This document shows positions 18,994-23,381 of a DNA stretch of 64,000 bases, in pieces. How positions within the stretch are numbered: position 1 is the stretch's first letter; the number at the start of each line of letters is the position of its first letter. This DNA is from Eledone cirrhosa (Eukaryota): contig CAXHJY010001316.1 in assembly GCA_964016885.1 (NCBI GenBank), forward strand, positions 1 to 64,000. Direction: 5' to 3'. The translations under genes were made by a program, and so were the position numbers. The notes under the pieces were generated by a model that made no database searches, was not told the DNA's origin, and saw nothing but the letters and a program-made list of their open reading frames with translations.

Positions 18994-21900
18994 CTATACT
19001 ATGGCTACCCTAATGATACAAGCCTATAGAGTGAGGAACCCTATACTATGGCTACCCTAATGATACAAGTCTATAGAGTGAGGAACCCTATACTATGGCT
19101 ACCCTAATGATACAAGTCTATAGAGTGAGGGACCCTATACTATGGCTACCCTAATGATACAAGTCTATAGAGTGAGGGACCCTATACTATGGCTACCCTA
19201 ACGATACAAGTCTATAGAGTGAGGAACCCTATACTATGGCTACCCTAATGATACAAGTCTATAGAGTGAGGAACCCTATACTATGGCTACCCTAATGATA
19301 CAAGTCTATAGAGTGAGGAACCCTATACTATGGCTACCCTAATGATACAAGTCTATAGAGTGAGGAACCCTATACTATGGCTACCCTAATGATACAAGTC
19401 TATAGAGTGAGGGACCCTATACTATGGCTACCCTAATGATACAAGTCTATAGAGTGAGGGACCCTATACTATGGCTACCCTAATGATACAAGTCTATAGA
19501 GTGAGGGACCCTATACTATGGCTACCCTAATGATACAAGTCTATAGAGTGAGGGACCCTATACTATGGCTACCCTGATGATACAAGTCTATAGAGTGAGG
19601 AACCCTATACTATGGCTACCCTAATGATACAAGTCTATAGAGTGAGGAACCCTATACTATGGCTACCCTAATGATACAAGTCTATAGAGTGAGGAACCCT
19701 ATACTATGGCTACCCTAATGATACAAGTCTATAGAGTGAGGAACCCTATACTATGGCTACCCTAACGATACAAGTCTATAGAGTGAGGGACCCTATACTA
19801 TGGCTACCCTAATGATACAAGTCTATAGAGTGAGGGACCCTATACTATGGCTACCCTGATGATACAAGTCTATAGAGTGAGGAACCCTATACTATGGCCA
19901 CCCTAACGATACAAGTCTATAGAGTGAGGGACCCTATACTATGGCTACCCTAATGATACAAGCCTATAGAGTGAGGAACCCTATACTATGGCTACCCTAA
20001 TGATACAAGTCTATAGAGTGAGGAACCCTATACTATGGCTACCCTAACGATACAAGTCTATAGAGTGAGGGACCCTATACTATGGCTACCCTAATGATAC
20101 AAGTCTATAGAGTGAGGAACCCTATACTATGGCTACCCTAATGATACAAGCCTATAGAGTGAGGGACCCTATACTATGGCTACCCTAACGATACAAGTCT
20201 ATAGGGTGAGGGACCCTATACTATGGCTACCCTAATGATACAAGCCTATAGAGTGAGGAACCCTATACTATGGCTACCCTAATGATACAAGTCTATAGAG
20301 TGAGGAACCCTATACTATGGCTACCCTAACGATACAAGTCTATAGAGTGAGGGACCCTATACTATGGCTACCCTAATGATACAAGTCTATAGAGTGAGGA
20401 ACCCTATACTATGGCTACCCTAATGATACAAGCCTATAGAGTGAGGGACCCTATACTATGGCTACCCTAACGATACAAGTCTATAGAGTGAGGGACCCTA
20501 TACTATGGCTACCCTAATGACACAAGCCTATAGAGTGAGGAACCCTATACTATGGCTACCCTAATGATACAAGTCTATAGAGTGAGGAACCCTATACTAT
20601 GGCTACCCTAACGATACAAGTCTATAGAGTGAGGGACCCTATACTATGGCTACCCTAATGATACAAGTCTATAGAGTGAGGAACCCTATACTATGGCTAC
20701 CCTAATGATACAAGCCTATAGAGTGAGGGACCCTATACTATGGCTACCCTAATGATACAAGTCTATAGAGTGAGGGACCCTATACTATGGCTACCCTAAC
20801 GATACAAGTCTATAGAGTGAGGGAACCCTATACTATGGCTACCCTAACGATACAAGTCTATAGAGTGAGGAACCCTATACTATGGCTACCCTAATGATAC
20901 AAGCCTATAGAGTGAGGGACTCTATACTATGGCTACCCTGATGATACAAGTCTATAGAGTGAGGAACCCTATACTATGGCTACCCTAATGATACAAGTCT
21001 ATAGAGTGAGGAACCCTATACTATGGCTACCCTAATGATACAAGCCTATAGAGTGAGGGACTCTATACTATGGCTACCCTGATGATACAAGTCTATAGAG
21101 TGAGGAACCCTATACTATGGCTACCCTAATGATACAAGTCTATAGAGTGATACAAGCCTATAGAGTGAGGGACCCTATACTATGGCTACCCTAACGATAC
21201 AAGTCTATAGGGTGAGGGACCCTATACTATGGCTACCCTAATGATACAAGCCTATAGAGTGAGGAACCCTATACTATGGCTACCCTAATGATACAAGTCT
21301 ATAGAGTGAGGAACCCTATACTATGGCTACCCTAACGATACAAGTCTATAGAGTGAGGGACCCTATACTATGGCTACCCTAATGATACAAGTCTATAGAG
21401 TGAGGAACCCTATACTATGGCTACCCTAATGATACAAGCCTATAGAGTGAGGGACCCTATACTATGGCTACCCTAACGATACAAGTCTATAGAGTGAGGG
21501 ACCCTATACTATGGCTACCCTAATGATACAAGCCTATAGAGTGAGGAACCCTATACTATGGCTACCCTAATGATACAAGTCTATAGAGTGAGGAACCCTA
21601 TACTATGGCTACCCTAACGATACAAGTCTATAGAGTGAGGGACCCTATACTATGGCTACCCTAATGATACAAGTCTATAGAGTGAGGAACCCTATACTAT
21701 GGCTACCCTAATGATACAAGCCTATAGAGTGAGGGACCCTATACTATGGCTACCCTAATGATACAAGTCTATAGAGTGAGGGACCCTATACTATGGCTAC
21801 CCTAACGATACAAGTCTATAGAGTGAGGAACCCTATACTATGGCTACCCTAACGATACAAGTCTATAGAGTGAGGAACCCTATACTATGGCTACCCTAAT

Positions 21901-22682
21901 GATACAAGCCTATAGAGTGAGGGACTCTATACTATGGCTACCCTGATGATACAAGTCTATAGAGTGAGGAACCCTATACTATGGCTACCCTAATGATACA
22001 AGTCTATAGAGTGAGGAACCCTATACTATGGCTACCCTAATGATACAAGCCTATAGAGTGAGGGACTCTATACTATGGCTACCCTGATGATACAAGTCTA
22101 TAGAGTGAGGAACCCTATACTATGGCTACCCTAATGATACAAGTCTATAGAGTGAGGAACCCTATACTATGGCTACCCTAATGATACAAGCCTATAGAGT
22201 GAGGGACTCTATACTATGGCTACCCTAATGATACAAGTCTATAGAGTGAGGAACCCTATACTATGGCTACCCTAACGATACAAGTCTATAGAGTGAGGGA
22301 CCCTATACTATGGCTACCCTAATGATACAAGCCTATAGAGTGAGGAACCCTATACTATGGGTACCCTAATGATACAAGTCTATAGAGTGAGGAACGCTAT
22401 ACTATGGCTACCCTAATGATACAAGCCTATAGAGTGAGGGACCCTATACTATGGCTACCCTAATGATACAAGCCTATAGAGTGAGGGACTCTATACTATG
22501 GCTACCCTGATGATACAAGTCTATAGAGTGAGGAACCCTATACTATGGCTACCCTAATGATACAAGTCTATAGAGTGAGGAACCCTATACTATCGCTACC
22601 CTGATGATACAAGTCTATAGAGTAAGGGACTTTATACTATGGCTACCCTAATGATAGAAGCCTGGATTGTGAGGGACCTATA
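18994..22682. repeat. 47-bp tandem satellite, about 78 units
   Basis: Unit CTATACTATGGCTACCCTAATGATACAAGTCTATAGAGTGAGG(A/G)ACC; period checked 19041->19088. Confidence 0.98.
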
Positions 22683-22924
22683 CCATAAAAATTAAAGAAT
22701 TCGTATAAATCACGCTATATGGAATAATAACATGACTTCGAGATGTTTCTCATATATATATATATATATTCCGTTTACCAATATATATATATATATATGT
22801 AGGAGGTGAGTTTTATTGTAGTACAATAAAGCAATGCAGATATCGGATAAGAAGCACTCTACAGTTTGTAGGACTGGAGTATACATAATATATAAGATAA
22901 AAAGATGGTTAAAGAAGTTCCATG

Positions 22925-22995
22925 TATTTTATTATGCGCATTTCAAAAACAAACATCATCATGCAATAATATTTATGTTTTCATCAGATAAAACA
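22925..22995 (-). ncRNA. Minimal type I hammerhead ribozyme, family C (left arm of hairpin)
   Basis: Near-exact reverse complement of 23141-23211. Confidence 0.75.
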
Positions 22996-23140
22996 GGAGA
23001 ACATGATATGAAGGCTAAAAAACACTTGTAGATAGTGCAGTTTTAAATCAACATATGTTGATGTGTTATATATATGTTGATATGTTGATTTAAAACTGCA
23101 CTATCCACAAGTGTTTTTTAGCCTTCATATCATGTTCTCC

Positions 23141-23211
23141 TGTTTTATCTGATGAAAACACAAATATTATTGCATGATGATGTTTGTTTTTGAAATGCGC
23201 ATAATAAAATA
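23141..23211 (+). ncRNA. Minimal type I hammerhead ribozyme, family C (right arm)
   Basis: TGTTTTAT-CTGATGA-AAACACAAATATTATTGCATGATGATGTTTGTTTTT-GAAA-TGCGCA-TA-ATAAAATA. Confidence 0.78.
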
Positions 23212-23381
23212 CATGGAACTCCTTTAACCATCTTTTGATCTTATATATTATATATATATATATATACCTATATATATATATATATACTATATATATATAT
23301 ATATATATTTACAGTTCACAAAGATTAGAAATTACTAGGTTTAATAAAAAAGTCAAGGGGTTGGCTTGCACAAAGTATTGC

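What the first reader, a model, noticed from the sequence alone, without database searches (positions are those of the whole stretch)
22886..23252. Near-perfect ~370-bp hairpin made of two opposed hammerhead cassettes
Seen: arms of ~170 bp (22886-23056 and 23080-23252) are reverse complements around a ~25-nt AT spacer, with (TA)n close by on both sides. Each strand therefore carries one family-C ribozyme, and the element has no coding sequence. Known: PLE insertions often carry inverted pLTR copies. Inference: this is a minimal foldback retroelement whose transcript would either self-cleave or fold into dsRNA that masks the ribozyme and could feed small-RNA pathways.
Basis: partly seen in the sequence, partly recalled or inferred. 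Interest (0 to 1): 0.75.

Follow-up and report, generated by a model that had tools for sequence, protein, structure and literature searches.

The report
Penelope hairpins fold at capped start
This hairpin is one of over two thousand back-to-back stubs left by a known kind of animal jumping gene (a Penelope-like element), likely made when its enzyme copied one RNA twice from a cut TA-repeat and ran off the RNA's capped start, which gives a testable account of how these elements build inverted ends.

Summary
The hairpin and both hammerhead motifs are real, but it is not a separate element. Each arm is the hammerhead-bearing pLTR of an autonomous Hydra-type Penelope-like element (801-aa ORF; 17,206 exact copies of one 27-mer). 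Opposed hammerheads in truncated Penelope copies are in print.

What the tools add: 2,345 hairpins fall in one size bin, against 516 and 99 in control bins, and nearly all fold at one site. 30 of 100 sampled copies stop there, and the next base is C 2,587 times against T 786, the expected trace of a copied 5' cap. None of 100 stops at the ribozyme cut. Junctions vary, this one is unique, and several subfamilies make hairpins, so most are made anew at insertion.

Seven A-to-G hyper-edited copies show that hairpin RNA did form dsRNA and was occasionally recopied; in one, both arms share 8 of 8 edits. Small-RNA use is untested; no usable RNA reads were served. The scan noted similar two-armed insertions, fixed fold points and edited hairpins in other parts of this genome.

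The parts
22773..22798 (.). (TA)n target microsatellite, left part
   Evidence: sequence
22799..22884 (-). 86-nt PLE tail, present on this arm only; in tandem copies it is the 5' leader that runs on into the ORF start; holds a small hairpin just behind the shorter end
22885..23056 (-). tailed arm: pLTR from the inferred transcription start (23056) through the hammerhead; carries all four internal mismatches
22925..22995 (-). type I hammerhead motif (CUGAUGA 22987-22981, GAAA 22944-22941, predicted cut after 22933)
23057..23079 (.). 23-nt junction, unique in the genome: TA-rich filler, a short duplication of the arm end, an 8-nt match to element sequence upstream of the fold point, and a G before the right arm
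23080..23251 (+). tailless arm: pLTR from the inferred transcription start (23080) to the shorter end
23141..23211 (+). type I hammerhead motif: stem I 23141-23148/23204-23211, CUGAUGA 23149-23155, long helix II 23156-23191, GAAA 23192-23195, palindromic helix III 23195-23202, predicted cut after 23203
23252..23310 (.). (TA)n target microsatellite, right part
   Evidence: sequence

Best explanation
The hairpin is a short two-armed insertion of an autonomous Hydra-type Penelope-like retrotransposon into a (TA)n repeat, likely formed when both ends of the cut target primed cDNA on one element RNA at two fixed sites about 86 nt apart, and both cDNAs likely ran off the capped 5' end of that RNA and were joined head to head. 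Shown: family, parent ORF, target, two fixed outer ends, one-sided tail, fixed fold point, C excess after it, separate origin of copies. Inferred: that the fold point is the transcription start, that the C comes from the cap, that priming is on both target ends. An mRNA from a tandem element would carry the start signals twice: priming on the 5' copy gives the 170/256-nt stubs, priming on the 3' copy gives the read-through and full-length copies. The hammerheads are passengers here; a read-through transcript would pair arm with arm and hide them. Such dsRNA is sometimes ADAR-edited and rarely recopied.
For: Parent: arm 98.8% identical to the end of L031, which holds an 821-codon open frame, 801 aa from its ATG region; in tandem copies L035 and L036 hammerhead, tail and ATG follow each other. 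Layout: of 100 listed 27-mer hits, 30 neighbouring pairs within 8 kb are divergent, 1 convergent, 4 same-direction. Fixed fold: 2,345 vs 516 vs 99 in 31-nt bins; 30 of 100 copies stop at the site (counted by eye) against about 6 of 100 departures over the 45 nt behind the ribozyme cut site (by eye). Cap trace: next base C 2,587, T 786, though the sense pLTR is 20% C and 38% T; an extra G marks capped full-length L1 insertions (PMC11702581, passage). Tail on exactly one arm in 48 of 50. Two cDNAs: in L032, L038, L039, L040, L042 the tailless arm reaches further upstream while only the other has the tail, so neither is a copy of the other (14 loci examined, picked by me). One RNA: L117 arms share 8 of 8 A>G changes among 34 overlapping A sites, none arm-specific. 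Separate origin: arm-to-arm distance 0.016 within a copy, 0.060-0.066 between; 0 of 169 columns separate tailed from tailless arms; haplotype concordance 0.976 vs 0.595 shuffled; this junction 1 match in 3.0 Gb. Internal RT starts and cutting of both strands were shown in vitro for a Poseidon element (PMC11167929, parts 1-2).
Against: No RNA evidence for the start site: the only RNA runs served were two metatranscriptomes (apparently one data set) with no contig over the pLTR end. 32 of 100 '+C' junctions can be read without a cap (20 as the partner's templated C, 12 as slippage) and about 12 more as longer microhomologies (by eye); A was not counted genome-wide and no control at another position was run. 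The commonest junction is a perfect palindrome that fold-back self-priming could also give. This copy's own junction has an 8-nt match to sequence upstream of the fold point, so one of its cDNAs may have read past it. L117's shared edits could come from an already edited genomic parent. In the nearest-neighbour test only 15 of 51 arms were strictly closest to their partner (16 ties), as young copies are near-identical. The 50 hairpins are the first 50 listed, all on contig C1. Unedited recopied hairpins would not be seen by my tests.
Confidence: 0.72

Rival explanations
1. One cDNA stops at the site and folds back on its own short palindrome (self-priming), copying itself to make the second arm, which is trimmed at a TA-like stretch and joined to the target.
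For: Perfect-palindrome apex is the commonest junction; palindromes at inverted junctions were read as self-priming in PMC3846280 (passage); the shorter end lies in a TA-like stretch that could pair with (TA)n; shared edits in L117 fit a DNA copy.
Against: In five loci, and in L117, neither arm contains the other; contig joints show a 30-50-nt tail piece joined to a full tailless arm; several junctions carry the extra base on both arms.
Confidence: 0.12
2. The hairpin is a non-autonomous foldback element that spreads through its own transcript.
For: Over 2,300 copies in one size class; 4 hyper-edited hairpins with same-strand A>G in both arms, and 3 with sense edits confined to the paired part, show that fold-back RNA has been a template.
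Against: Heterogeneous junctions, unique junction here, no left/right arm lineages, hairpins in several subfamilies; only 7 edited hits against more than 17,000 arms (the pattern catches only part of edited copies); no editing polarity in 51 hairpins, which were chosen by exact words and so biased against edited ones.
Confidence: 0.08
3. The fixed fold point is a reverse-transcriptase pause or an RNA processing site, not the transcription start.
For: No direct start mapping; 70 of 100 copies read through; no TATA-like box 25-35 nt upstream in L031 (sequence).
Against: C excess right after the stop; pyrimidine-A initiator-like context; it is 123 nt upstream of the predicted ribozyme cut, where 0 of 100 stop; PLE starts lie in the pLTR (PMC8557442, passage).
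Confidence: 0.07
4. Assembly or chimeric-read artefact.
For: This junction was not bridged by a listed contig of other runs.
Against: Thousands of loci, varied junctions, mismatched arms, one-sided tail, similar joints in another run.
Confidence: 0.01

Closest known systems
Hydra clade of C-terminal EN+ Penelope-like elements (Craig et al. 2021, PMC8557442; its table lists Hydra-1_Obim, 2,507 bp, (TA)n)
   Same: DKT, CxCx5C linker, CxxC before E and CxH after N, no CCHH, hammerhead, (TA)n target
   Different: Unit about 3.7 kb rather than under 3 kb; RWT for RWK; no tree against named Hydra proteins was built; tail 86 nt rather than the 30-40 given for PLEs
Opposed minimal hammerheads of truncated PLEs (Cervera and de la Pena 2014, PMC4209133)
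   Same: Two motifs 100-700 bp apart on opposite strands; palindromic helix III; long helix II
   Different: 12-bp helix II core; mostly A-U or G-U where G10.1-C11.1 is usual (1 of 79 G-C); no fixed fold point described in the parts read
Inverted 5'-truncated pLTR with one-sided tail (PMC3846280, PMC8557442); internal RT starts of Poseidon_Ac (PMC11167929)
   Same: Head-to-head layout, palindromic junction, two fixed ends, AT-rich target, uncut RNA as template
   Different: Here the inner ends are fixed too and carry a cap-like extra base; non-nested arms and shared edits favour two cDNAs on one sense RNA over self-priming on an antisense template
L1 twin priming and cap-derived extra G (PMC11702581, passages)
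   Same: Two primed cDNAs joined by end-joining; extra G at full-length 5' ends
   Different: In L1 the two cDNAs cover neighbouring parts of the RNA; here they overlap almost wholly and start at fixed internal sites
Non-LTR retrozymes (bioRxiv 10.64898/2026.07.22.740005) and MITEs
   Same: Non-coding, hammerhead-bearing, PLE-derived (retrozymes); short inverted repeat in TA (MITEs, recalled)
   Different: No tandem same-strand hammerheads; asymmetric ends and variable apex, unlike a MITE

Membership tests
EN+ Penelope-like element | Single ORF with RT and C-terminal GIY-YIG endonuclease in the parent | tested here: met
   L031 ORF with YRDD core and C-terminal IY..YFG, R, E, N pattern conserved in 11 homologues. 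Pfam gives no hit for this protein itself; RVT_1 and GIY-YIG each hit 1 of 12 aligned members weakly
EN+ Penelope-like element | pLTR by partial tandem, hammerhead in pLTR | tested here: met
   L035, L036, L051
EN+ Penelope-like element | Inverted 5'-truncated copy and one-sided tail | tested here: met
   48 of 50; 30 divergent vs 1 convergent pair
Hydra clade | DKT; CxCx5C linker; CxxC-E and N-CxH; CCHH absent | tested here: met
   alignment against section 11 of PMC8557442
Hydra clade | RWK motif; length generally under 3 kb | tested here: inconclusive
   RWT here, RWK/RWR in most homologues; unit 1315-5045 in L031
Hydra clade | Insertion into (TA)n | tested here: met
   flanks of 51 hairpins
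Hydra clade | Phylogenetic placement with named Hydra RTs | not tested
   no named reference proteins were fetched
Type I hammerhead ribozyme | Core CUGANGA/GAAA/NUH with three helices, structure kept among copies | tested here: met
   79 distinct motifs (found by a regular expression that fixes the core): stem I 7-8 of 8 pairs in 75; helix II variants keep pairing in 67 of 81 cells vs 0.39 expected, but only 1 two-sided change; no Rfam hit
Type I hammerhead ribozyme | Self-cleavage | not testable with these tools
   no assay; 0 of 100 genomic copies end at the cut site
Non-LTR retrozyme | Tandem units each with a same-strand hammerhead | tested here: not met
   one motif per strand
Self-propagating foldback element or MITE | Copies share one internal junction and symmetric ends | tested here: not met

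The most novel reading that the evidence does not exclude
These hairpins are genomic 'strong-stop' products of a Penelope enzyme: two reverse transcriptases copy overlapping parts of one capped RNA from both ends of a cut (TA)n. Thousands of apices map the transcription start to the base, and ADAR edits shared by both arms act as a molecular barcode showing a single RNA template. Hairpin dsRNA re-enters the cycle and writes RNA edits into inherited DNA.
Probability: 0.6. Interest if true: 0.68.

Novelty: new member of a known kind. Interest (0 to 1): 0.5.

Why it matters
How Penelope-like elements, the sister group of telomerase RTs, form their inverted ends is called an open question in PMC8557442. 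This family gives base-level predictions: the capped start, two RT start sites, two cDNAs on one uncut RNA. It also shows that over 2,300 near-perfect hairpins in this genome are by-products of one retrotransposon, easily mistaken for MITEs or miRNA precursors, and a source of edited dsRNA. The structure as such is known.

Tried and rejected
Rfam: no hammerhead hit; miRNA-precursor matches are all below gathering score and reflect the hairpin shape. DNA search of the own genome returned nothing because common words are skipped; patterns were used instead. Pfam did not recognise the parent protein. A truncation peak at the ribozyme cut site: 0 of 100. RNA support: only two metatranscriptome runs with a small share, nothing over the pLTR end, no evidence either way. 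ADAR polarity in this copy: none; its mismatches are G>A x3 and C>A x1 on the + strand of the tailed arm. G-interrupted TA flanks beside edited copies were rejected as evidence of longer edited RNA, since unedited hairpins sit in the same kind of flanks. My junction parser mis-anchored in about 17 of 51 rows, so its count of 41 distinct junctions is inflated; by eye roughly 16-18 of 50 are the plain palindrome. Retrozyme and MITE readings rejected (membership test). Earlier-findings look-ups by sequence and by words found nothing. Literature searches listed no paper on a cap signature at PLE fold points or on edits shared between PLE arms; they cover open-access PMC and bioRxiv only, and I saw most hits only as listings.

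Full report
1. Observation. The inverted repeat is there: arms 22880-23056 and 23080-23256, 97% complementary, 23-nt spacer, four internal mismatches, all on the left arm. Each strand has a CUGAUGA-helix II-GAAA core followed by palindromic AUGCGCAU and A at the cut position. Rfam does not see it. Among 79 distinct motifs from fetched loci stem I keeps 7-8 of 8 pairs in 75, and helix II variants keep pairing in 67 of 81 cells against 0.39 expected, nearly all by one-sided changes.

2. What it is. A 27-mer of the hammerhead has 17,206 exact matches in the 3.0-Gb own genome. Of the first 100 listed, 30 neighbouring pairs within 8 kb face outwards, 1 inwards, 4 the same way, with spacings from 51 to 7,477 bp. 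Longer pairs enclose an ORF: L031 has an 821-codon open frame and ends in a 98.8% identical arm. In tandem copies L035 and L036 the hammerhead runs through the tail into the ATG, so the arm is the pLTR and the tail is the leader. The protein has 25 homologues at 29-42% identity, the only named one from Argonauta hians, and shows DKT, YRDD, CxCx5C, CxxC-E and N-CxH without CCHH, the Hydra-clade features of PMC8557442 section 11. Pfam does not recognise it, and no tree with named Hydra proteins was made. Earlier scan notes call the host an octopus; I did not test that.

3. A fixed fold point. Outward pairs with a gap of 210-240 number 2,345; gaps of 160-190 and 260-290 give 516 and 99. This copy's gap is 247, just outside the peak bin, because of its spacer. 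In the first 50 listed peak copies (all contig C1), 48 have the tail on exactly one arm, outer ends are fixed and merge into (TA)n, and in 49 the apex lies at or within a few bases of the same ATAT; L051 is a tandem read-through copy. Of 100 sampled copies of the 18-mer next to this site, 30 stop there and 70 read on (by eye). The base after the stop is C 2,587 times and T 786 times, although T is nearly twice as common as C in the element. About a third of the C cases are ambiguous (20 partner-templated, 12 slippage, of 100, by eye); the rest would still outnumber T about two to one. A C at the cDNA end is what copying a 5' cap gives (extra G in full-length L1 insertions, PMC11702581 passage). 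I infer that the fold point is the transcription start. At the predicted ribozyme cut, 0 of 100 copies stop, in line with uncut RNA as template (PMC11167929).

4. Made anew, from two cDNAs on one RNA. This junction is unique in the genome at up to one mismatch. Arms within a copy differ by 0.016, between copies by 0.060-0.066; no column separates tailed from tailless arms; both arms share the subfamily haplotype (0.976 vs 0.595 shuffled), and several haplotypes match long copies. In five of 14 hand-picked loci the tailless arm clearly reaches further upstream than the tailed one, so neither can be a copy of the other; contigs of another run show short tail pieces joined to a full tailless arm. 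In L117 the two non-nested arms share all 8 A>G changes in their overlap, which fits one RNA molecule as template for both, or an edited genomic parent.

5. A read-through transcript would fold at -259 kcal/mol against -8.7 for the monomeric hammerhead; the palindromic helix III points to a dimer (duplex -12.5), which two motifs on opposite strands cannot form on one RNA (dimer dependence and low activity in PMC4209133). Prompted by earlier scan notes, I searched for edited copies and found 7, all hyper-edited. Four have A>G on one genomic strand in both arms (23+34, 14+21, 30+37, 12+16) with the tail almost untouched: hairpin RNA, edited as dsRNA and returned to DNA. Three have sense edits only. 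So hairpin RNA exists and is occasionally recopied, but 7 hits against more than 17,000 arms, and the junction evidence, make this the exception; unedited recopies would escape my test. This window's copy shows no editing. Small RNAs and the start site could not be tested; the RNA runs served do not cover the region.

6. Against the known. Opposed hammerheads 100-700 bp apart in truncated PLEs (PMC4209133), inverted pLTR with one-sided tail and palindromic junction (PMC3846280, PMC8557442) and internal RT starts (PMC11167929) are published. My six answered searches listed nothing on a cap signature at PLE fold points or on arm-shared edits. The scan has noted two-armed insertions, fixed fold points read as RNA starts, twin hairpins and edited hairpins in other pieces of this genome; these are unchecked notes, not independent support. 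Seen of each paper: PMC8557442 passages, section 11 and three supplement rows; PMC11167929 and PMC4209133 parts 1-2 of 4; bioRxiv 2026.07.22.740005 part 1 of 5; PMC3846280, PMC11702581, PMC13282606 passages; others as listings only. Supplements not seen (Hydra alignments, hammerhead families) may bear on clade placement and on the 'family C' label. The MITE description is recalled.

7. Verdict. Real; a new Hydra-type family in a known insertion layout. The value lies in the mechanism that thousands of copies record: capped start at the apex (inferred), two cDNAs on one uncut RNA (well supported), rare recopying of edited hairpin RNA (shown in the family, not in this copy). Interest 0.5.

Noticed in passing
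window 14324(-)/15562(+), 29129(+), 32508(+) and 15878(-)/17455(+), 34607(-): Two further hammerhead families, each with an outward-facing pair 1.2-1.6 kb apart; probably other PLE families.
   Followed up: no
window 45835-45882: 48-nt stub of the same family in (TA)n, starting about 5 nt before the predicted cut site.
   Followed up: partly
window about 20000-22690: 47-bp tandem satellite, copies about 95% alike, ending about 100 bp left of the insertion.
   Followed up: no
L035, L036, L051, behind each of the two element ends: Two small hairpins (ACTC..GAGT and GCTC..GAGC stems), each about 8 nt behind one fixed end; candidate RT start signals, weak in energy (-4 to -6 kcal/mol). Lead from earlier scan notes.
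   Followed up: partly
L112-L118: Seven A>G hyper-edited copies; edits favour a 5' T or A (45/78, 51/98) over G or C (12/49, 5/55). All seven hits were on the minus strand, which is unexplained (chance or search bias). L112 has the tail in antisense on the edited strand, so its route back into DNA is unclear.
   Followed up: partly
L037:699-7432: Nested insertion: the same family flanks another RT/GIY-YIG-like open frame of 344 codons in mirrored layout.
   Followed up: no
L031 ORF, about residues 590-650: Asn/Pro/Thr-rich insert of about 65 aa before the CxCx5C linker, absent from most homologues; N-rich inserts are described for rotifer PLEs (PMC3846280, passage).
   Followed up: no
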